Positions 47,969 through 64,000 of a stretch of DNA of 64,000 nucleotides are shown piece by piece. Source of the stretch: Cenococcum geophilum. Taxonomy: Eukaryota. Position 1 is the first letter of the stretch. Every line of letters begins with the position of its first letter. The notes below the pieces were generated by a model that was not told the DNA's origin, did no database searches, and worked only from the letters and a program-made list of their open reading frames with translations. The translations under genes were made by a program, and so were the position numbers. The stretch lies in NCBI GenBank assembly GCA_050273025.1, contig CP158635.1, forward strand, positions 6,758,001 through 6,822,000, written 5' to 3'.

Positions 47969-50142
47969 AAACCTTTACCGGACATGCAACCTTACCAAAA
48001 GGTAGCGCAACACTTCAAAACTTACGCATACCCATCTTACCATCAAAAACAATTGATTTTTTAACTTTTAAGACTTAATTCCTACTGCCTAGCGAGCTAG
48101 AGGTGGATTTATTTGTCGTTTTACCCCCTTTCCCCCAACAGAAAATTCTTCTTAGGGGTGGTCCTAGCTTGTAAGCAAGGCACGGATAGGAACACCAAAA
48201 CTAAATACTAAAACCACGAAATATAGAGGCTAGATTTTCTACTACCTTTTAGCCTAATCTCCCTAGAAATCTTCTAGTAGGATTAGTAAGGAGAAAGGGT
48301 ATAAGGATAGTAAAAACTAGGAACCCTTATATAAGATACAAAATACTAAGGCCTAATAGGTCTAAAAAAAAAACCTCCTATAGAAATAAGTAATAAAGGT
48401 TCTACATCTACTTATTCTCCCCCTTCTCCTTCTCCTAGCCCAATTAAGGCAGGAGAAAAAAGAAGACATCCTTAGTCTTCTCCTAAAAAAGAAAACCAAA
48501 AACCTATAAAAAAGACAACAAAACCAATAACTACTACGGATAGTATAGATAATATACCCTCCTATTCCTTTTCTCTAGAACAACATCTAAGCTTCGCTTT
48601 GGAAAGCCTAACCTAGGCCTATAAAGGGCTAGAAGAAGAAGAAGAAGAAAGAGAAGAAATAAAAGAACAAGTTAAATAGCTAGTGTACTATACACAAAGT
48701 ATCCTATTAGGAGAAAATCCCTTTACACAAGAAAAAGAAGAAGAAAAAGAAAAAAAAAGAAAAAGAGAAGACAAACGATGTCCTAAAAGGACTAGTAGAA
48801 GAAGTAAGAGCTCTCCGTAAGGAGGTGGCTCCTATTAAAGAAACTTATACAAAGAGGCTAAAAAAGGACCTCCCTTCTTTATCCTCTATACCTTCCTTAT
48901 TATCGTCTACCCCTCCTTCTTCTAGTAGGGTAACTAGTAGCACGCCTAGCTCTAGCTCTACCTCTACTAGAAGTAAAAAAAAGCAGCTATAAAAAAGGAA
49001 GCTAGTCCTAATTACAGATAAAAAGGACTAATTCCTAGATATTCTTTATACGAAACAAAGTCAATTAACTATTTACATTAAAACTGCAAGTAAAAAAGCC
49101 AGTACTAGCGTCTATAGCTAGAACTAAAGGAAAATAAAAGATTCTCCTTATAACTATAGAAGAGTATAATACAGATTTCCTAGTTAAATATAAGGAGATC
49201 TGGCATAACTGCTTTACCTTTTAAAGAGAACAAAAATTAGAACTATGGGTTTAAATTATAGCCTATAGGGTTCCTACCCTACCTTTCCTAGGAGAAGGAG
49301 GCTCTAAGCTTCTAAAAGAAGAAATTAAGACCTTTAATCCTATAAGGATATAAGGACTACCTAGATAGATCTTATCTAGCGAAAAAAGATATAATCTACA
49401 GACCAGATTTGGCTCTATAGTTTTTATTATAAAGAATAAAGAAAAAAGACAAGAAATCCTTAAGTAAAAAGAGATATTAATTGCAGGTACAGCTACTAAG
49501 GTAGTAAAATACCTCAAAGTCTCTCCTACTACACAATATACTAGCTACTAAAAATTTAGCCATATAGGAGATAGATGCTCTACTAGAGCCTGTAGATTTT
49601 GTACAGCTATATATTTATCTAAAGACCACTCCTGTTCTACCTATATAATAATAGGCAAGCCCTATAAGCATACTACCCCTCTTTGCATTAACTGTAAAGA
49701 AAACCACTTTATAAATAGTAAAGATTACAAGGTTCTAAAAGTAGCTAAGCTAGTAGATAATACTAGCTTAGAAGGTTCTATAGAAGAATAAAACAAAATA
49801 AATAGGATTTTAGAAGGAGGTAACTCCTACTAGGCTTTTAGTAAAAAGATATTAGAGAGCAAAAGGATAGAAATAAATTGCAAAAGGACAGGGATAGGTG
49901 TTAGGATTTCCTATAGTTTTTCCTACCGTTTTCTTATTCCCTAGTAGTCGCAGTACCTTAGTGTTTTATTAAGGAACTATAAACCCTTAGGGGTTTATAA
50001 ACTACTAGGACATAGCTACTAGTACATATTAAGCTGTTTAGAAAGGATTTATGTATATAGAACTATAGCGCCATAGCCTAGAGGCTGCATGCGCAGTATT
50101 ATACGTAGTATAATACAATCGGATATAAAAAATATAAAAAAA
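47969..50142 (+). mobile_element. Non-autonomous LINE derivative encoding only a Tad1-like ORF1 (~48223-49791), A-rich tail, 12-bp TSD ATAAAAGGATTA
   Basis: The TSD copies are at 47957-47968 and 50143-50154. ORF1 ends in CCHC knuckles (..KFSHIGDRC..ACRFC..LCINCKENHF..). No endonuclease or RT lies between the ORF1 stop and the tail. Confidence 0.85.
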
Positions 50143-50892
50143 ATAAAAGGATTAGTTAAAGGTAATAGATAAGCCGGATAATTTAAGAAATCCACCACTA
50201 GCGTATAAGTTATTTCCGCCTCTTCTTAATTAGAATCCTTTTTAGCCTTTTTAGCAAGTTTCTATTCCTTTAAGCGTACCTTTTTACAAACTTTCTTAAG
50301 ACGGGTTAGTTAAGTATAAGCGATCTATTAAGCCTTAAATATCCTCTGCTCTTTAGTATAGATCTACTCCCTATTACTTTAGAGCTTTTATACCTTAGCT
50401 AAGGCTAAGGCTAGCTTACCCTTAAGGTAGGACGCCTTAGATTAAACATAAAACCCTATACTAAATTAGATAAGGTATTAGAGAATTATAAAGAATTATA
50501 AGACGCGTATACTTAGCGTTAAAGATAAATTAAATGTTATAGAATAACTATATATTCGCTTGCGTATACTTAGTATAGAAAAAAGGTTAATAACTAGATA
50601 GAGCCGTAATTATAATATATACTAGCTTCTTCTTCATATAATAAAAATAGGACGGTATAACTTTACTAAATAAAAAAAACCATAGTTACTAGCTAATTAT
50701 AATAATTAGATATAGAGAATCTAATAGAAGGTATTAAAAATAATAAAGGTTATTAAATTAAGAATGGGAATACTATACCTCTAATAAACAACTTAGAGAT
50801 AGGAGAAATCTTTAAGGACAAAGATAAAGTGGAAGGGGGTAGTGTTATAGACCTTATATTAGCAGTAATAGTACTATTAAGGAGAGATATAA

Positions 50893-51906
50893 TAATAATA
50901 ATTCTTCTTTAATTAACGTCTGATACAGATACTATCTAGCCCCACGCAGACTACTCCGTATATAAGGGAAAAGTAATATTAATAGGAAAAAACCCTTGCT
51001 GCTAGGGGGAAGGAAAAACCCTATAAGCCACCTTAGTAGGATAAAAAACCCCGTTTGCTATATCCGCACATAGCAGCGGCCCTATAGGCCTACAGCTATG
51101 TCCTATCCTCTTTAGATATTTAAACTCCTTAGAAACCACTGCTTCCTTCTTTAGCTTATCCAAGCTAGGGTTTACTACGTCCCAGCTAGGCCTTACCACT
51201 TAATTGCTGTGTCTTGCTATTGTCTCCTATATCTTAGCCATCCCTTATATGCTATCTCTTATTTAACTATTGCCATATACGCCATACCTCCCCCCCCCTA
51301 GGGCCTATTAAAGGCGTAAGGGGGATTTATTTGTTCTAACTACCATAATACTAATAAGTAAGCGGGATATTGTATATTTAGGTATCTTTTATACCTAGGC
51401 CCCAGCTAGGCCCTTTCTAAGGGTTACCACTCCGTTAAAAGAAGATAGGGAAAACCGTAGGTTGCAATCTAGGCTGCTAGGTAGTATTTGGTAGAAAAAA
51501 CAGCGAATAACCGCATGCTCCGCGGGCGATCGCCCTGGGGGTTAGGAGGGGCCGTATATTTGCTCGTTGCTCGTTCACTCGCAATCGCTCGTCTATCAAT
51601 ATAAGAGGTCGTTAATGCTTTCTATTAGGGGTCGGGGGATGCTATCAAATGCCGTTTATCCACGTTGGATCGTATAGGTGCCTTAATAGGAGAATAGCGT
51701 AGCTAAATTGTAGAGGGCCACAGTAGTGGTTTTTAAGATCTCACTATCTGAAAATTTTTCACCACCGCCTATAACGCTCACAACCACGACCACTAGGTCC
51801 TATCGCACGCTATATAACGTCTCTGCGTTAGCTCTAAGTCTAAACTTTAAAGACCTAGGTTCGTAGCCGTCACCATATATAGGTGCAGAGTCCGTTTTCG
51901 ACGGCC
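50893..51906 (-). mobile_element. ~1.0-kb non-autonomous non-LTR retroposon (SINE-like) with a 5' ribozyme, an (ATT)n tail and a 15-bp TSD TAAGGAGAGATATAA
   Basis: The TSD copies are at 50878-50892 and 51907-51921. The 3' end reads ggagtagtctgcgtgggg..gacgttaa..gaattattattatt. It is inserted in the Gypsy A 3' LTR. Confidence 0.9.
51821..51906 (-). ncRNA. HDV-like self-cleaving ribozyme (partly RIP-damaged)
   Basis: P1 GGCCGTC/GACGGCT with a G1-U wobble, P2 CTCTGC/GCAGAG, P3 ACC/GGT with a 7-nt L3, P4 CTAGGTCT/AGACTTAG, and J4/2 GCTAAC with the catalytic-position C at 51831. It begins exactly at the element's 5' end. Confidence 0.8.
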
Positions 51907-53012
51907 TAAGGAGAGATATAAATGGGTTAGTTAAGATAGTATAAAAGGTACTAAAAGCGATTAAGCTATAAAATAAGGGGTAGTTAAGTTATACAGCTAG
52001 TTATATTATAGGTTTAGAATGTAAAAATATAGGAACGTAGGAATATAAGACGTACTAATATACTTAGTACATTTCTTAGGCGCAGTATTGTATATTTAAA
52101 GGACCTCAGTCTCTACCTAAATAGTTCTCTTCTTTATAGTAAATCTTAGACTATAATTAGAGTTAATCTATTAGGTAACCTACTCTACTAGTTATATTTA
52201 TATTATTAATTTAACCTATGCCTATATACCTAGCCCATTAACAAGTCTATCGTAGTATTTCCTATAAGGCTTCGTTATAAAGAGATATCTTCTATACTAT
52301 TTTTAATGTAAAAGTAAACCAGAAATATAATGGAAAGAAAGCTATTAGGCGCTACTATTAGGAACTAGACCTAATAGGCCTACTATATAGATATAATAAG
52401 GTTTAGGTGCTATAAGAAGTAAATATAATAGAAGATTTTTATAAAGAATTATAATAATCCTCTAGGCGGCTACTATAGTTAAGCTAAGATAGTAAAATTA
52501 ATTTAGTGTAAATACTATTGGCTAAAGCTTAAATAGGAAGTAAAGGAGTATATTAGCTATTACGAGAAGTGTTAAGTATATAAAATCTATAGGCAAAAGC
52601 CATAGGGTCTTCTTAAATTAGTTCCCTCTATTAGCAAGCTATAGCGATATTACGCTATAGACTTTATTATAGATCCCCCGCTATCTAAAGATGGCTAAGG
52701 ATAAATATATAATTTAGTCCTTATACTTACTAATAGGGCTTTAAAGTGCGTCTAATACCTTTTTATTAATAAGACAATTAATATATAAGCGCTTACTAAC
52801 ATAATTAAGGAGAAATGCTTTCTTAAAGTAAACTAACCGCACTCTATTATTACTAATAAGGGCAGCGTCTTTATAAGCTAGTACTAGTTAGATTTATACT
52901 TTTATTTAAAAATAGACTACTATTATAGTATAGCCTTTTATCTATAAATAGACGAGTAAATAAAATGTTAAAACTAGGAACTGAAGTTTTACCTATAAAT
53001 ATATTTAAACTA

Positions 53013-53226
53013 CGGAGGTGCGTTTTAAAAGTGTTTGCCGGCCCTGCCTAGGTTAAGCCTAAAGAGCCTATATATAGCCAAAAACTAGGCGCATTTTAAG
53101 CCGGTTCTGGGGGACCTTAGGCGCTATTAGGCGGCTTTTAGCCCGTTGCCCTACTAACCTTAAGGCAGCTACCGCCTATAAGACCGCCTAATAAAGGGCG
53201 GTAAAGACTTTTGAAACGTACCTCCG
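53013..53226. mobile_element. Tc1/mariner-type MITE, 20-bp TIRs, TA TSD
   Basis: TA|cggaggtgcgttttaaaagt...acttttgaaacgtacctccg|TA. Removing it restores the integrase frame LNY*QDN. Confidence 0.9.
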
Positions 53227-53499
53227 TACTAGCAAGATAATTAGTATAGGCTACTTCTATACGTAGAGTACGCTTATAATTTAAAGTAATATATATTATA
53301 TAAGTATATACTAATCTAGATTACCTATAGCGTCTAACTATTTAGGTTTAATAGTATACCTAGTAATTACTAGCTAAGGCCGTATAATTAATTATAGGAT
53401 CTTACTAGGAAGTTTAAAGATATCTATTAAAGAGTATAAGGATACCTCTAGGAATAGGAGGAGTAATAAAAGTATATAAAGTAGAGCCTATAAGATGCC

Positions 53500-56400
53500 T
53501 ATCACGGCACTAACCTAACGCGTTATTATAGCTTGTATACGCGTATGCATAGGCACGGACCTAACCCCTATATTAGCGACTTAGTCAATTAAGGCATAAG
53601 CACGGCAAGAGGAACGCGTAAGCCTATACGATTAGTAGTCTATAATCGAAGATCTAAAGCTAAAAAAAGGAAAGGAGACGGAGGGCGGCGCCGCTTAACA
53701 TTATATACGATCCTCTAGTTACGTAATAGTAACTGTCTAGAACTATATAAAACTATCTACGACTATTTATAACTATCTGTAACTATTTACAACTATCTGC
53801 TATAATCTACTAATATCTATTAGCCACAATCCACCAGTTTCCACTAGTGCCGTAATATTACCCCCCCCTCTAAAAAAGCCTGCCCTTAGGCTTTATACGT
53901 CCGTATTATATCTATAGGGTATTCTTATTTTTATACTTAATAGGCAGCTTATTATCTTTGCTATTTTAGCACTTTATCTACTTATTAAGGTACTTTAGGA
54001 GTCTGGGTTTATTAGGATAATAACTATAAAATTCCTAAAGCTTATAGGGGCTACCTATAAAGTTCTATATAGGGTACTAAGTAGGGTCTAGGTTGTACCC
54101 TTTCTAACTAATATAATATTTTAACGTTCCCCTTATAAGCTTATAGGTTAGTATTTCTTTAATTTCCTATTTATTGTCGCCGTTGGCTTAGATCGGTAGG
54201 GGAAGTTTATTCTTTTATCTAGGTAATAGGTTATTTATAGCTTTCCGTGGTTTATCCAAAGAGAAAATAGGGTAAACTTTAATTAAATCTGGGAGCTTTA
54301 CTTTATATGCGTTACTTATCTTTTTAAAAACCTTATACGGTCCTACTATCTAATAGTCTAGCTTACGGCTAAGTTATTCCGTCTTTTAGTTCTTTATTAT
54401 AACCTAGACTATATCTCCTATAGCAAAGTCAGGCTCTTGCCTATACTTATTTGCTTACTATTTATTAATTTCTAGGCCTTTTCTAGATTTATATAGGCTA
54501 CCGTTTAGGCTTTTTTTAAGCGCTTAGCGTACTACTAGGCTTCCTTATAAGATAGTTTTTTGCGTATAGTCCAGGGTCCTTCTAGTCTTTCCTAGTTAAA
54601 GCTTATATAGGGTAAATAGCCCATTTCTAGCTGGATAGGGGCAAATCCTATAAAGTTATAAGGTAGGGTCGCTTAGGTGTAGTCTATTAGGGGTAGCAGT
54701 TTAACCTAGTTATCTTAGAAGTAGTTAATAAAGGGCCGAAGTATCTAGTCTAAGTATTAATTTATAATTTCCGTCTAACCATCTATTTAGAGGTAGTATA
54801 CTATAGAAAGCTTTAGCTTAATGCCTAAGATCTAGGTAAACTTATTCTAAAAAGCTAAAATAAATTACGGCCCGTAATCGGATATAATAGTATCTAGTAG
54901 TCCGTAAATTTGGTAAATATAGTAGATATATAGTTAGGCCGCCTCTTTAGTATTAATATTCTTATAACAGGGGATTAAGAACGGGCGCTTACTAAAGCGG
55001 TTAACTAGGATTATAACTATATCGTATCCGTTACGGTCTGTAGGTTGTTTATAAAAGTCTATAGAGATATACTACTAGGGGCGTTCTGGTATTAGGAGTA
55101 GTTTTAATAGTCCTAGGGTTTTATCTTATAGAATTATAAATCTATAGCAGTTAATATAGTTCCGTATATAGCAGTTAATATTTATAGCTATTTTAGGCCA
55201 GTAGTAGCGGTTGCCAATAATCTTACAGGTCTTATTTTTTCTAGGGTAGGCCGTAGAGACCTAGGTATAAGCTTTAGTAATAAGCCGGGTCCGTAAGTTC
55301 TGTTTCTTAGCTACTACTAGCAGTTCCTAATGCTTAAGTAGTCCGTTTTAAGGGACTATAGGCTAATAATATTCTTTATCTTTTTGCGGTACTCTTATAG
55401 AGAGGGGGTCGTTTAGTTAGCCTATAGTAGTTTATTAATAAGGTTAAGTTTAAAGAAGTTAATAGAATATATCTTGGCGCATAAGAAGTCTATACTTAGT
55501 TCTGCCCATATTTAGGGGTTAAGGTATTCTGGTTATAGTAGCGTCTAAGTCTATAATAAGATCTTTACAGCCGTCTAATTATCTAGGTCTTACTTACGCC
55601 TTATAAGAGCGTCCGCACGGTTTATAGCGCCTAGTCTATATATAATTAAGAAGTTAAATTAAGATAGGGTATCCGCCTAGCGTGCCTACTGGGCCGTAAG
55701 GGCCTTATAATCTAAAACTACCTTAATTAGCTTAGGGGTCCCCTCTAGCTATATATACTAGTGCTAGAAGCTAGAGATAATAGCTAGTATTTCTTTATTA
55801 TAGATATAGTAGTTTAGCTTAGCATCTATTATAGTCTTTAAATAGTATATAATAGGGTGCTACTCTCTATCCGGTTACTTCTAGGAAAAAACACTAGCTA
55901 TTGCGCCGTTTAAGGTATTAGTTTCTAGTATTAAGGGCCGTTCTAGGTTAAAATAGATAAGTAGGGGAGCCGATACTAGCCGTTTCTTAAGCTTATTAAA
56001 GGCCTACCTATATATAGCGTTAAAGTAAAAGGGCTGGTCTTTTTTAGTAAGACGGTTAAAAGGCTAAGTAATCCTACTATAGTTCTTAATAAAGCGTTAG
56101 TAGAAGTTACAAAAACCTAAAAATAATTGCACCCCCTTTATGGTCCGTAGGGGTGCTCACTAGTTAATTACGGCCGTTTTCTCTAGATTGGTTTTAATTT
56201 TATTTATACTAATAATAAAACCTAGGTACTTTATACGCTTAATACTAAACTCTAACTTCTTAATATTAACCTAGAGGTTAGCCTCGTAGAGCTATTATAG
56301 GACTTTATAGACGTGCTCCTTATATTCTAGCTTATTCTTAGAGTAGATTATAATATTATCTAAATAGGCCGTATAGAAGTCGTTAAGGTAGTTAAAGAGT

Positions 56401-59662: not shown

Positions 59663-60406
59663 ATGCCTAAGAGTAGTAAAGACTCTAGTATAACTATAAA
59701 CACTAAAATAAGTATTTTAGAGTAGGCGATAAGGTTATATTACGTTTAACAAATATTAAAACCTATTAACTATTAAGCTAGCCTACTATCTCTAGCTACC
59801 CTATCTATAGCCTATATATATCTAGTATTTTATATAAACCTACTAAAGCTATAGTATAGACTACCGCTAAAAAAGAACTTCCGTTTAGGCCTAATTAAAT
59901 ACCCTAAAGTAGTAGGTAAGTAGTATAAGGTTAAAGCTATACTATACTATAAATCTATTAAGAATAAGCTTTACTATAAAGTTAAATAGCTAGACTAGCC
60001 TATTAAGGACTTTATATAGGAACTAGAGGATTACCTTAATTATTATAAAGATATTTTAAAAGAATATTAGGACTACGGTCTATAATCCATAAATTATAAA
60101 AAGCGCTCTAATACTATAGTGTTATTACAACCTATAAAGAAAGCTTGTAGTAGGCCATAAAGAGGCTTTAAAGAGTAAGAAATAGGCTAAATCGGATATA
60201 AAATGGATAGGCTTTAGAAACTATTGGGATAGGGCTATAGCCTTTATATATATAGTATAGAATTAATAGGGCATTTTGCTATAATTGTATTTCTATTAAT
60301 TAATTTATACCAAGAATATTATTCCTAGGGCTCCTAAGCCCTTTTTAAAAGCCTTTTAAGGCCTTCTTAAGTACCTAATTAAGGTCTTTAATTACTACTA
60401 TATATA

Positions 60407-60588
60407 GAGCACCATAGGCGACTCGCAGGCGCTAAGCAGGCGAGTCCCAAAAGGCGGGGAGATAGATCGCGGGGTTTTCTCATTTTTCTTAAATAGAGTT
60501 TTCTCCCCACATGTAAATAAGGAGTAGTCCGCGTGGGCCCAATAGGGATCCGAATCGGACGTTAAGCAATGAATTATTATTATTATTA
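60407..60588 (+). mobile_element. 5'-truncated LINE/SINE 3' end (182 bp), (ATT)n tail, 18-bp TSD TAATTACTACTATATATA
   Basis: The TSD copies are at 60389-60406 and 60589-60606. The last ~80 nt resemble the 3' end of the 50893-51906 element. Confidence 0.85.
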
Positions 60589-60639
60589 TAATTACTACTA
60601 TATATAAGAATAAATCCCAAATACCTAATCTAAAAAGCC

Positions 60640-62333: not shown

Positions 62334-64000
62334 TGTTGGGAATACAGGTAAGTTGCTATTACGTAAGGCAAGTTGCCGTCACGTATCGCCGCGGCACTAG
62401 CGTAGCGAGGAGCCTTAAGCTCCTCGCCCTTCCTTAAGTAGAAGGGATATAGAATAATAATTATTATACTACCTACAACTTATAGATACGTAATATTACC
62501 TTATATTACTAATACTAATTAGTAGTTAACTTTACTATTATACTATAGAATAGCTAGGTATTCTACTAAGAAGAAATAAGCTACTATACCAGTGCTACTT
62601 ATACTAGAGGAAGCTGTCTTTTAAGGTTAGAACTGGTCCTAAACCTTAAATAGAACTCTTTTACAAATTTAAGGATCTAAAAGGCCAGAACTGGTCCTAA
62701 GCCTTTCCCAGATTATAGATTCTTGTGTTTATTACGCAGAATAATATACCTTATAAGTCTTCGCGATTTAAGGCTAGAACTAGTCCTAAGCCCTATAATT
62801 ATAGATTTTTATTACAAACGCGTACTAAACAAGAATCCCTATACTAATAATACTTCCCTTTCTTTGAAAATATGGCTACTCTAAACAACTAGAAAGACTT
62901 TTTACTACTAGGGGTAGCTATATACGCGAAACTTATTAATAAAGATTAGGACGAATTTGCCTTTAATATAATAACTTATACCGCAAAACAAGTTAATAGT
63001 TTTCTCCTGCACTATATTCTATTTTACTAAGATAAATACTACGCCGATTTATAACTGTGGGAATATTTTAGGGAGGATTTTATAGGATAGACCGCCGATA
63101 CCTAGGCACTTGGAAATATTAATATTATTTAAGATTTCTAAGACTTCCTTTATAGGAATGGGGTATACGTTACTAAGAACGGTAACCCAGTTACTAGTAA
63201 TATTTAGGCCGTTATTATTAGCATAGAAGAACCGGTATAGATAAAAGCTAAGATTATATATTAACTACAGAAACCTAAAACTAACCCATATTCTTTAAAA
63301 GGTAACTTTAATTTGTATTAAAACCCCTAAAACGCTAATCTTCTACCTAGAGGTACTCTCTTACCTAGAGGTGCTCTCCTACCTAGAGGTACTCTTCCCC
63401 TACCTCCGCCGCCTCTAACTTCTCTACTTTAGCTAACCGGTAAGCCTTTACTATAAGAAGTCACGAATCTAATAAAGGTATATTTGGACGAAGAGAAGGA
63501 GTTTAGAGAAGAACTATATAACATACTCGGAATAAAACTATAGGTCTTTTATAACTATTGCAGTAAGGTTAAAATCTAATGCTACTAGTTTTATTATGCT
63601 TTCTTAGTTATATTAAAGGGACGGGCAGCGATATTTTATTACGACTATATTACGGGTAGAAACTATAGCTTTAACGTAATGCTTTAGCTTATTAGAGCCT
63701 ACTTTAAGACTAATAAAAACTGTTAACTTTATATATCTAAATAGCGGGAGACTATATTCTAAAGAGTTATCGCTTTTAACTTAATAAAGACTTATTTAGA
63801 GTGCCTTTAACTACTTTTTAATAAACTTTAGAAAATCCAATGTGGCCTTACTAAAACTTACTAAAATAAGAACAGTCTAAGGGACTAGGTTATTTTAGCC
63901 TGCCGTGGCGTTCCTAAGTGTAATTTAGCGCTATATAAACCTATAGATATATTTAAAGGAGTATATACCAAGCTACGCTCCGCTGTAGGTACTGCGATAT
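62334..64000 (+). mobile_element. Copia 2: 5' LTR (62334-62514) and gag of a relative of Copia 1, runs off the window
   Basis: The LTR shares ggcaagttgccgtcacgt..gcggcactagcgt..aggagcc with Copia 1 and has the same post-LTR ctaattagt(a/g)gtt. The gag is homologous (GELYNIL..KL*VFYNYC, MLKG..A..FYY). Confidence 0.9.

What the first reader, a model, noticed from the sequence alone, without database searches (positions are those of the whole stretch)
51821..51906. HDV-like ribozyme capping a 1-kb non-coding retroposon
Seen: the minus strand from 51906 reads GGCCGTC-GAAAACGGA-CTCTGC-ACC-TATATAT-GGT-GACGGCT-ACGAAC-CTAGGTCT-(9 nt)-AGACTTAG-AGCTAAC-GCAGAG. This gives the HDV double-pseudoknot order: a 7-bp P1 with a G1-U wobble, P2, a 3-bp P3, P4 and a C-N-A-A J4/2. 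G1 is the first base inside the 15-bp TSD, so the predicted cleavage site coincides with the element's 5' end. Known: HDV-like ribozymes process the 5' ends of several non-LTR retrotransposon clades such as R2, RTE and L1Tc. Inference: L3 TATATAT and ACGAA are RIP products of TGCACRT and GCGAA, which would restore the 2-bp P1.1.
Basis: partly seen in the sequence, partly recalled or inferred. Interest (0 to 1): 0.9.

Follow-up and report, generated by a model that had tools for sequence, protein, structure and literature searches.

The report
Self-cutting RNA heading a fungal retroposon
The first 86 bases of a 1-kb non-coding jumping element, present in hundreds of copies in what is probably a fungus, fold like the hepatitis-delta self-cutting RNA, with the predicted cut exactly at the element's first base; this copy is a mutated relic.

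Summary
A 15-bp target-site duplication flanks a 1014-bp ORF-free element (51906..50893), and G1 is its first base.

In this copy alone the fold is not beyond chance. A relaxed descriptor hits 3 times in the window, with about 1.2 expected.

The family settles it. One metagenome scan returned at least 121 copies with unrelated flanks, and similarity starts exactly at G1. Of 48 copies with an exact duplication of 11 bp or more, 44 have it abutting G1. The majority sequence restores L3 to UGUAUGU. That gives a 2-bp P1.1 (G27-C44, U28-A43) at the HDV positions and the L3 U...G pair. A strict descriptor hits 20 times in 493 kb of these loci, all in this family. In random sequence it hits 1-2 times per 4 Mb.

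Transversions are at least 15-fold rarer in nt 43-86 than in the rest of the element. P4 length variants keep the hairpin. RNA-seq shows sense-strand transcripts that carry G27 and G31.

No Rfam family matches, P1.1 is non-canonical, and cleavage is untested.

Verdict: a new member of the HDV-like retroposon ribozymes, closest in design to L1Tc/NARTc. The window copy is a RIP-damaged, probably inactive relic.

The parts
50893..51906 (-). Whole retroposon copy, 1014 bp, non-coding and RIP-mutated
   Evidence: The 15-bp TSD bounds it. Of 68 relatives with at least 1150 nt held downstream, 60 align to it through position 990 or beyond. Their lengths are 982-1032 bp and identity is 73-83%. The consensus has no ORF. 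Paralogous empty sites appear in DNA contigs as joints 50880->51916/51918.
51907..51921 (-). Upstream copy of the target-site duplication (TTATATCTCTCCTTA on the minus strand)
50878..50892 (-). Downstream copy of the target-site duplication
51821..51906 (-). HDV-like ribozyme module, nt 1-86 of the element. In this copy it is damaged at A27, A31, U58 and U77.
51900..51906 (-). P1 5' strand (nt 1-7). The predicted cleavage is 5' of G1, which is 51906.
   Evidence: G1-U42 is G-U in 106 of 117 distinct copies. The similarity boundary lies at +1.
51891..51899 (-). J1/2 (nt 8-16)
   Evidence: Unpaired. It holds the A/T/C polymorphism at nt 12 that is shared between subfamilies.
51885..51890 (-). 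P2 5' strand (nt 17-22)
   Evidence: Pairs with nt 81-86; 97.4% of cells are paired.
51882..51884 (-). P3 5' strand (nt 23-25)
51875..51881 (-). L3 (nt 26-32). It reads UAUAUAU here and UGUAUGU in the family majority.
   Evidence: At 51880 and 51876 the change T>C is read in 1323/1327 and 1325/1327 RNA reads whose first mate lies on the + strand, and in most DNA contig depth. See also the alignment.
51872..51874 (-). P3 3' strand (nt 33-35)
51865..51871 (-). P1 3' strand (nt 36-42)
51863..51864 (-). P1.1 3' partners A43 and C44
   Evidence: U28-A43 pairs in 117 of 117 copies. For pair 27-44 the counts are G-C 40, A-U 13, G-U 5 and unpaired 59 of 117.
51834..51858 (-). P4 hairpin (nt 49-73)
   Evidence: 8 bp. 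Natural deletion and insertion variants keep a hairpin.
51827..51833 (-). J4/2 (nt 74-80). The candidate catalytic C76 is position 51831.
   Evidence: The consensus is AGCCAAC. C76 is at least 90% conserved.
51821..51826 (-). P2 3' strand (nt 81-86)
50893..50964 (-). 3' module: a stem-loop plus a trinucleotide-repeat tail. It is the presumed recognition site for the partner reverse transcriptase.
   Evidence: It is shared at 78% identity with the short element at 60407-60589 and with many loci. Tails are (TAC)n, (TTA)n or (AAT)n.

Best explanation
The 86 nt at 51906-51821 (minus strand) are a RIP-damaged copy of a self-cleaving ribozyme with the HDV-like nested double-pseudoknot fold. This ribozyme forms the 5' terminus of a roughly 1-kb non-coding, non-autonomous non-LTR retroposon family. 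The family has hundreds of copies in what is probably a filamentous fungus. In intact copies the element is transcribed as part of longer read-through transcripts (inferred). The ribozyme then cuts just 5' of G1 and releases an RNA that starts exactly at G1 (inferred). That RNA is copied into new sites by target-primed reverse transcription. The reverse transcriptase would be borrowed from an unidentified LINE and recruited through the shared 3' stem-loop and (TAC)n/(TTA)n tail (inferred). Because the ribozyme lies downstream of its own cut, every new copy inherits it. What is shown: the fold in the family majority, the exact 5' boundary, the TSDs, sense-strand transcription, conservation of the module, and the RIP-type decay of the window copy. 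What is not shown: the cleavage itself.
For: 1. Family and boundary. At least 121 copies were found. The majority-letter frequency is 0.58 or less at -30..-1 and 0.90-0.98 at +1..+6. Only 2 pairs of 122 share flanks.
2. TSDs. Of 69 copies with enough flank, 56 have an exact repeat of 7 bp or more. Of the 48 with 11 bp or more, 44 abut G1 with no extra base and 4 have one extra base, which is not consistently G.
3. Fold. 93.8% of cells are paired, against 28-45% when the 3' partners are slid. The majority L3 is UGUAUGU. This gives P1.1 (G27-C44, U28-A43) at the same positions as HDV C21/C22-G39/G38. It also gives U26...G31 at the places of HDV U20...G25, and C76-C-A-A in J4/2 (features from PMC6326823).
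4. Specificity. My strict descriptor matches 19 of 120 aligned copies at G1. It gives 20 hits, all in the family, over 493 kb of loci counting both strands. It gives 1 and 2 hits in two 4-Mb random sets.
5. Constraint. The transversion rate in nt 43-86, which lie outside my search pattern, is 0.0017. In the 86-nt bins of the rest of the element it is 0.026-0.074. Non-RIP variants carried by 3 or more of the 68 copies occur at G1 (3 T, 1 C; two of the T copies are one insertion sampled twice), J1/2 nt 12, the 1-nt P4 indel and L4 nt 63. P4 deletion and insertion variants still form hairpins (L032/L041/L103, L054, L041:594-672).
6. Expression. Stranded RNA reads come almost entirely from the element's sense strand (for example 5491 against 55 mean depth). 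Depth falls from 1272 to 44 across the 5' boundary, and 317 of about 1168 molecules end at nt 10. G27 and G31 are read in 99.7% and 99.8% of RNA reads.
7. Not a Pol III SINE. No tRNA was found and there was no Rfam hit. T5 runs sit in the consensus and in 67 of 68 copies.
8. Precedent. L1Tc/NARTc and R2 carry HDV-like ribozymes that cut at +1 (PMC3185411, PMC3774820; passages).
Against: No cleavage assay or 5'-OH mapping exists. The RNA pile-up is at nt 10, not nt 1, and RNA-seq cannot tell a transcription start from a cut. No Rfam HDV-like model matches at E<=10, either on the window copy or on six little-mutated copies.

P1.1 is non-canonical: the G is in L3 and the C follows P1, and the second pair is U-A. 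The L3 position matching HDV C24 is U in the majority. C appears there only in the 2 copies found independently of my pattern.

The nested MFE fold is not unusual (z = -1.79 and -0.89). It prefers two 4-bp alternative helices (nt 3-6/12-15 and 39-42/74-77) over P1. My rough sum for the pseudoknot (-28.9 kcal/mol) barely beats the MFE (-26.7 kcal/mol).

Base-pair covariation is dominated by RIP and is not evidence. Pairs with a change on both sides number 6, against 5.8 in shuffles. My scan pattern fixed nt 17-42, so variation there is under-sampled. The descriptor is my own implementation.
Confidence: 0.7

Rival explanations
1. The conserved 5' module is not catalytic. It serves as an internal promoter or initiator that starts transcription at G1, or as a binding site for the partner LINE's proteins, and the HDV-like drawing is a coincidence or a dead relic of a ribozyme.
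For: Exact 5' ends and strong conservation are also what an internal promoter predicts. L1Tc's first 77 nt are both promoter and ribozyme (PMC3185411). There is no Rfam match. P1.1 and L3 are non-canonical. The MFE z-scores are unremarkable. No cleavage data exist.
Against: The strict HDV descriptor is matched at the exact first base. Its chance rate is about 2.5-5e-7 per position, and it has no hit elsewhere in 493 kb of the same loci. P4 length variants keep a hairpin, which a DNA promoter has no reason to do. A promoter role would not exclude cleavage as well.
Confidence: 0.22
2. Chance: an AT-rich stretch that happens to draw as P1-P4, next to a chance 15-bp repeat.
For: The relaxed descriptor occurs about 1.2 times per window by chance, and 3 hits are seen. 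The window copy lacks P1.1 and the L3 guanine. The MFE z-score is -1.79.
Against: At least 121 copies share the module, and it starts at G1 in all but a few. TSDs occur in 56 of 69 copies. The majority sequence completes the motif.
Confidence: 0.02
3. A Pol III SINE head derived from tRNA, 5S or 7SL, with internal A and B boxes that set the 5' end.
For: The element is short, non-coding and highly repeated, and shares a LINE-like 3' module, as SINEs do.
Against: ARAGORN finds no tRNA in 5 loci. There is no Rfam hit at E<=10 in 6 loci. The element is 1 kb long, and T5 runs sit in the consensus and in 67 of 68 copies, which would stop Pol III.
Confidence: 0.04

Closest known systems
L1TcRz / Pr77 of L1Tc and its non-coding derivative NARTc (trypanosomatid ingi clade; PMC3185411, passages; PMC4035085 and PMC3383444, listing only)
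   Same: An HDV-like ribozyme occupies the first 77-86 nt of a non-site-specific non-LTR element and cuts at +1. It is also carried by a non-coding, non-autonomous element. P1.1 is weak or non-canonical (a single pair in L1Tc).
   Different: The host is probably a fungus, not a kinetoplastid. There is no detectable sequence similarity and no Rfam hit. P1.1 here is 2 bp, with G in L3. The tail is a trinucleotide repeat, not poly(A). The autonomous partner and any promoter function are unknown here.
R2 (and R4/Dong) 5' ribozymes (PMC3774820, passages)
   Same: The double-pseudoknot fold cuts the element RNA out of a co-transcript at or near the 5' junction. The L3 G matters for activity. P4 is variable or absent.
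   Different: R2 is autonomous and specific for rDNA, with very long J1/2 loops and often variable 5' junctions. Here the element is dispersed and non-coding, has a 9-nt J1/2, and has uniform junctions (44 of the 48 TSDs of 11 bp or more abut G1).
HDV genomic/antigenomic and CPEB3 ribozymes, and the descriptor built from them (PMC6326823, passages; Webb et al. 2009 was not held and is recalled)
   Same: The order of strands, the 7-bp P1 with G1-U, the 3-bp P3 abutting P1', the 2-bp P1.1 from L3 positions 2-3, the L3 U...G, and C-N-A-A in J4/2.
   Different: P1.1 is G-C/U-A with reversed polarity instead of two C-G pairs. The majority has U where HDV has C24. Two extra nt (A74, G75) precede the candidate catalytic C, and one (C80) follows the AA.
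RTE and Baggins HDV-like ribozymes, and ribozyme-bearing SINEs of metazoans (review PMC6765202, passages; Ruminski et al. 2011 was not held)
   Same: Promoter-less retroposons are freed from read-through transcripts by a 5' ribozyme. Many copies share downstream sequence and have differing upstream sequence.
   Different: The review describes these in metazoans. I found no fungal case in four full-text searches.

Membership tests
HDV-like self-cleaving ribozyme (nested double pseudoknot) | Strand order P1-J1/2-P2-P3-L3-P3'-P1'-P1.1-P4-J4/2-P2' | tested here: met
   93.8% of 2992 cells are paired, against 28-45% when the partners are slid.
HDV-like self-cleaving ribozyme (nested double pseudoknot) | 7-bp P1 whose first pair is G1-U or G1-C at the cleavage site | tested here: met
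   G-U in 106, A-U in 7 and other in 4 of 117 distinct copies. P1 is 96.0% paired. The window copy has it.
HDV-like self-cleaving ribozyme (nested double pseudoknot) | 3-bp P3 directly abutting the 3' strand of P1, closing a 6-8-nt L3 | tested here: met
   ACC/GGU with a 7-nt L3. Nt 17-42 were fixed by my scan pattern, so the conservation there is partly by construction.
HDV-like self-cleaving ribozyme (nested double pseudoknot) | 2-bp P1.1 between L3 positions 2-3 and the two nt after P1' | tested here: met
   Met in the family majority: G27-C44 and U28-A43 (U-A in 117 of 117; pair 27-44 is standard in 58 of 117). G27 is read in 1323 of 1327 RNA reads. It is not met in the window copy (A27). 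The composition is non-canonical, with G on the L3 side.
HDV-like self-cleaving ribozyme (nested double pseudoknot) | Conserved L3 letters U...C-G (HDV U20, C24, G25) | tested here: inconclusive
   U26 and G31 are present in the majority. The C position is U in all pattern-selected copies and in the RNA reads. It is C only in L009:2479-2568 and L041:594-672. The window copy has A31.
HDV-like self-cleaving ribozyme (nested double pseudoknot) | Catalytic C in J4/2 followed by N-R-A | tested here: met
   C76-C77-A78-A79 in the consensus and C-U-A-A in the window. Two unpaired nt lie between P4 and C76.
HDV-like self-cleaving ribozyme (nested double pseudoknot) | Mg2+-dependent self-cleavage 5' of G1 giving a 5'-OH product, lost when the catalytic C is changed | not testable with these tools
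   No assay was possible. RNA-seq shows only a drop in depth at the boundary and ends at nt 10.
Curated Rfam HDV-like families (HDV, CPEB3, drz-Agam and others; names recalled) | Score at or above the gathering threshold of a family model | tested here: not met
   No hit at gathering on the window. No HDV-type hit at E<=10 on 50800-52000 or on six little-mutated loci.
Non-LTR (TPRT) retroposon, non-autonomous | Target-site duplications, a 3' repeat tail, unrelated flanks, no ORF | tested here: met
   Paralogous empty sites appear in DNA contigs.
Non-LTR (TPRT) retroposon, non-autonomous | A partner LINE with the same 3' module | tested here: inconclusive
   The 3' module is shared with a 183-bp element family. 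No LINE carrying it lies in the DNA I hold. The only RT fragment found (L059:1744-2343, RVT_1, E=1.5e-12) is not linked to it.
Pol III SINE | Head derived from tRNA, 5S or 7SL; no internal T-run terminators | tested here: not met

The most novel reading that the evidence does not exclude
This is an active, abundantly transcribed HDV-like ribozyme family in a fungus, a kingdom for which I found no report of such ribozymes in retroposons. Its P1.1 has reversed polarity (G in L3, C after P1, plus a U-A pair). It heads a purely non-coding 1-kb element, which would therefore need no promoter of its own and could keep spreading from read-through transcripts inside RIP-degraded nests of repeats.
Probability: 0.55. 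Interest if true: 0.62.

Novelty: new member of a known kind. Interest (0 to 1): 0.55.

Why it matters
HDV-like ribozymes are known to free R2, RTE, Baggins and L1Tc/NARTc RNAs from co-transcripts. The cases I could read about are in animals and trypanosomatids. A fungal family would widen that distribution. It would add a natural core variant: a reversed-polarity G-C/U-A P1.1, and U at the position matching HDV C24. It would also give fungal genome annotators a marker for the 5' end of a very abundant, uncatalogued retroposon. The family further offers a natural mutagenesis series. Hundreds of RIP-mutated copies, the window copy among them, carry single and double transitions in every helix and could be assayed in bulk.

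Tried and rejected
1. Rfam scans found nothing relevant. I ran the gathering threshold on the window and E<=10 on 50800-52000, on six little-mutated loci and on 60380-60620. The only hits were weak, unrelated ones.
2. Nested MFE z-scores are not significant (-1.79 and -0.89). The energy model cannot score pseudoknots, and my additive estimate is rough.
3. I rejected the covariation counts as evidence. Double-sided changes are G-C to A-U by RIP on both strands, and the number of pairs with such changes equals the shuffles (6 against 5.8).
4. No whole genome is held for the window, and the metagenome records could not be extended. As a result the autonomous partner and the context of L098 stay unknown.
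5. Truncated copies (L065, L048, L037, L009, L043) were checked as possible LINE 5' ends. Their downstream parts are other repeats nested into them.
6. The other relaxed-descriptor hits, at 1737+ and 44743+, are AT-rich helices within the chance expectation.
7. The CM R1 hit at window 63418-63480 (E = 0.52) is treated as noise.
8. The RNA 5' end could not be refined.
9. Earlier notes of this scan hold nothing on this genome or sequence.
10. Webb et al. 2009, Webb and Luptak 2011, and Ruminski et al. 2011 are not held. Their supplements may list fungal hits that I could not see.

Full report
**Observation.**
- P1 is GGCCGUC (nt 1-7) with GACGGCU (36-42), and the first pair is G1-U42.
- J1/2 is GAAAACGGA.
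- P2 is CUCUGC (17-22) with GCAGAG (81-86).
- P3 is ACC/GGU around a 7-nt L3 (UAUAUAU).
- ACGAAC follows.
- P4 is 8 bp (49-56 with 66-73) with a 9-nt loop.
- J4/2 is AGCUAAC.

The 15-bp repeat TTATATCTCTCCTTA lies at 51921-51907 and at 50892-50878. The element is therefore 51906..50893, 1014 bp, and G1 is its first base. It ends in an (ATT)n run. The ORF listing gives one ORF inside the element, 65 aa at 51002-51199 on the minus strand, and one other in 48000-55000 (84 aa).

**Is this copy's fold beyond chance?** I wrote a descriptor from the features named in PMC6326823 (passages). These are G1-Y, a 7-bp P1, P2 of at least 5 bp, a 3-bp P3 abutting P1', a 6-8-nt L3, P4 of at least 4 bp, and C-N-R-A in J4/2. 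A strict form adds L3 U...G and a Watson-Crick P1.1.
- The relaxed form hits 3 sites in the window's two strands: 51906-, 1737+ and 44743+.
- Random first-order Markov sequence of window composition gives 36 hits per 4 Mb, about 1.2 per window.
- The MFE z-score is -1.79.
- No Rfam family matches at gathering or at E<=10.

Taken alone, this copy's fold is not remarkable. What is unlikely is that it starts at the first base inside a TSD, which has odds of about 1e-5.

**The family in sequencing runs.** No genome is held for the window, so I went to public reads and metagenomes. Laying two DNA runs, one RNA run and one metatranscriptome at 80% likeness gave the following.
- 6814 and 5708 DNA contigs were laid, so the element is highly repeated.
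- Paralogous copies of the flanking repeat lack the insertion (joints 50880->51916/51918, and loose ends at 50892 that continue into the right flank).
- RNA comes almost only from the element's sense strand (for example 5491 against 55 mean depth).
- RNA depth falls from 1272 to 44 across the 5' boundary and is 0 in the next two bins (51950-52057), though beyond that point the flank is specific to each copy.
- 317 of about 1168 molecules end at 51897 (nt 10).
- The differences from the window are mostly A>G and T>C. Inside the ribozyme, nt 27 and nt 31 read G in 1323/1327 and 1325/1327 RNA reads, and in most DNA depth.

- Similarity begins at G1. The majority-letter frequency is 0.58 or less at -30..-1 and 0.90-0.98 at +1..+6.
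- The first 7 nt equal GGCCGTC in 74 of 122 copies, differ once in 35, twice in 9, and more in 4.
- Only 2 pairs of the 122 share flanks.
- Of 68 copies with at least 1150 nt held downstream, 60 align to the window element through position 990 or beyond. Lengths are 982-1032 bp. The other 8 are interrupted by other repeats.
- Of 69 copies with enough flank, 56 have an exact flanking repeat of 7 bp or more, and 48 have one of 11-18 bp. Of those 48, 44 abut G1 directly and 4 have one extra base (t, t, g, c). Thirteen have no exact repeat.
- Tails are (TAC)n, (TTA)n or (AAT)n.
- A majority consensus and a RIP-corrected consensus, computed inside a script, have no ORF longer than 53 aa from a Met.
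- Transitions show a RIP-type bias. C>T occurs at 45% of CpA and 28% of CpG sites, against 11-13% elsewhere. There are 4240 C>T and 4218 G>A changes, against 550 and 559 reverse changes.

**The fold in the family.** The majority sequence of 120 aligned copies, together with the reads, gives L3 = UGUAUGU.
- G27-C44 and U28-A43 then pair L3 positions 2 and 3 with the two bases right after P1'. HDV's C21/C22-G39/G38 do the same.
- U26 and G31 sit where HDV has the U20-G25 reverse wobble.
- 93.8% of cells are paired, against 28-45% with slid partners.
- The strict descriptor matches 19 of 120 copies at G1; the rest fail through transitions. It gives 20 hits, all in the family, over 493 kb of loci counting both strands. 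It gives 2 and 1 hits in 4 Mb of random sequence of window-like and ribozyme-like composition.
- A covariance model built from the alignment found two copies that my pattern had missed, L009:2479-2568 and L041:594-672. Their L3 reads UGUACGU and UAUACGU, so they carry the C that matches HDV C24.

**Constraint.** RIP transitions are decay after insertion and say nothing about function. I therefore do not count the small excess of double-sided changes. Transversions mostly mark differences between propagating lineages.
- Their rate in nt 43-86, which lie outside my pattern, is 0.0017. In the rest of the element it is 0.026-0.074.
- Non-RIP variants carried by 3 or more of the 68 copies lie at G1 (3 T, 1 C), J1/2 nt 12, the 1-nt P4 indel and L4 nt 63. 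Two of the G1-to-T copies are one insertion sampled twice.
- P4 occurs in at least four forms that all close as hairpins: the 8-bp form; a 1-nt deletion with a bulge; a 9-nt deletion giving CUGAGU/ACUCAG (three separate insertions); and an insertion adding a C-G pair (L054). L041:594-672 has a further short form.

A peripheral P4 of variable length fits what is reported for R2 ribozymes (PMC3774820).

**Mechanism.**
- Shown: a transcribed, TSD-flanked, non-coding retroposon family whose conserved first 86 nt fit the HDV-like motif, with the predicted cut at the family's 5' terminus.
- Inferred: the RNA is made as part of longer transcripts, cuts itself 5' of G1, and is copied by a LINE enzyme recruited through the 3' stem-loop and repeat tail.

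The 3' module is shared with a separate 183-bp element (window 60407-60589, with a 17-bp TSD; also in L061 and L010).

A Pol III origin is unlikely. There is no tRNA and no Rfam hit, and T5 runs sit in the consensus and in 67 of 68 copies.

The window copy has A27 (P1.1 lost), A31 (L3 G lost), U58 and U77. R2 work reports that a G-to-A change in L3 goes with loss of activity (PMC3774820). I therefore expect this copy to be inactive (inference).

**Against the ribozyme reading.**
- Cleavage is untested.
- RNA ends pile up at nt 10 rather than nt 1.
- An internal promoter starting at G1 would also explain exact ends and conservation, as in L1Tc, where promoter and ribozyme coexist.
- P1.1 has reversed polarity and one U-A pair.
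- U replaces the C24 equivalent in the majority.
- The nested MFE prefers two 4-bp alternative helices (3-6/12-15 and 39-42/74-77) that compete with P1 and cover C76.
- No Rfam model matches.
- My pattern fixed nt 17-42.
- The descriptor is my own.

**Comparison with known systems.** The closest design is L1Tc/NARTc. Next come R2, and then the RTE, Baggins and SINE ribozymes described in metazoans (PMC6765202, passages). Four full-text searches found no report of an HDV-like ribozyme in a fungal retroposon. The key primary papers (Webb 2009; Ruminski 2011) and their supplements are not held, so I cannot exclude an earlier listing. I file this as a new member of a known kind.

Noticed in passing
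window 60407-60589 (+), TSD 60390-60406 and 60590-60606: A 183-bp element with a 17-bp target-site duplication. It shares only the last ~70 nt (stem-loop plus (ATT)n tail) with the 1-kb family. Copies of the same length occur in L061:2133-2312 and L010:1227-1405. It is probably a second non-autonomous family that uses the same LINE. No Rfam hit.
   Followed up: partly
L098:285-374 (+): The ribozyme core (nt ~11-93) sits in a GC-rich, non-RIPed context with different sequence on both sides. P1 is reduced to 5 bp, and an upstream GGTGC...GCACC hairpin overlaps it. It could be a chimera, a 5'-truncated insertion, or a different host element. The record could not be extended.
   Followed up: partly
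L022:2878-2994 (-): A weak CM hit (22 bits, E=0.006). It is a heavily RIPed 117-nt stretch whose 3' end resembles J4/2 and P2' of the family, while its 5' strand and its partner differ (GGTTTCG...TAGAGCC). It may be a relative with a covarying P1 and a longer P4. Only one copy lies in the DNA held.
   Followed up: partly
window 51865-51868 with 51830-51833, and 51892-51895 with 51901-51904 (minus strand nt 39-42/74-77 and 3-6/12-15): Two 4-bp alternative helices appear in the MFE fold. They compete with P1, and one covers the candidate catalytic C. The 3-6/12-15 hairpin is weakened in the subfamily with U12. It could be a folding trap or simply noise.
   Followed up: no
window 51769-51857: 171 RNA reads (18 start places) in run X21 join 51769 to 51857, skipping 87 nt. 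That is nt 51-137 of the element, which includes P4, J4/2 and P2'. It is either a deletion subfamily or an alignment break.
   Followed up: no
window 52112-52165 and the flanks 50600-50890 and 51920-52200: The DNA into which the element inserted is itself a very abundant repeat (summed contig depth up to about 694,000 in run X1). Copies of that repeat without the insertion exist in the same runs.
   Followed up: partly
window 1737 (+) and 44743 (+): Two other matches to the relaxed HDV descriptor. Both are built from AT-rich helices and are within the chance expectation of about 1.2 per window.
   Followed up: partly
L059:1744-2343 (+): A 200-aa open frame matches Pfam RVT_1 (E=1.5e-12). It lies 200 bp upstream of a family copy, in the opposite orientation. 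It belongs to another retroelement and is not shown to be the partner.
   Followed up: partly
whole window: GC is 25-39% throughout, and only 5 stop-to-stop frames reach 100 aa. The window is a nest of RIP-type mutated repeats with no evident gene.
   Followed up: partly
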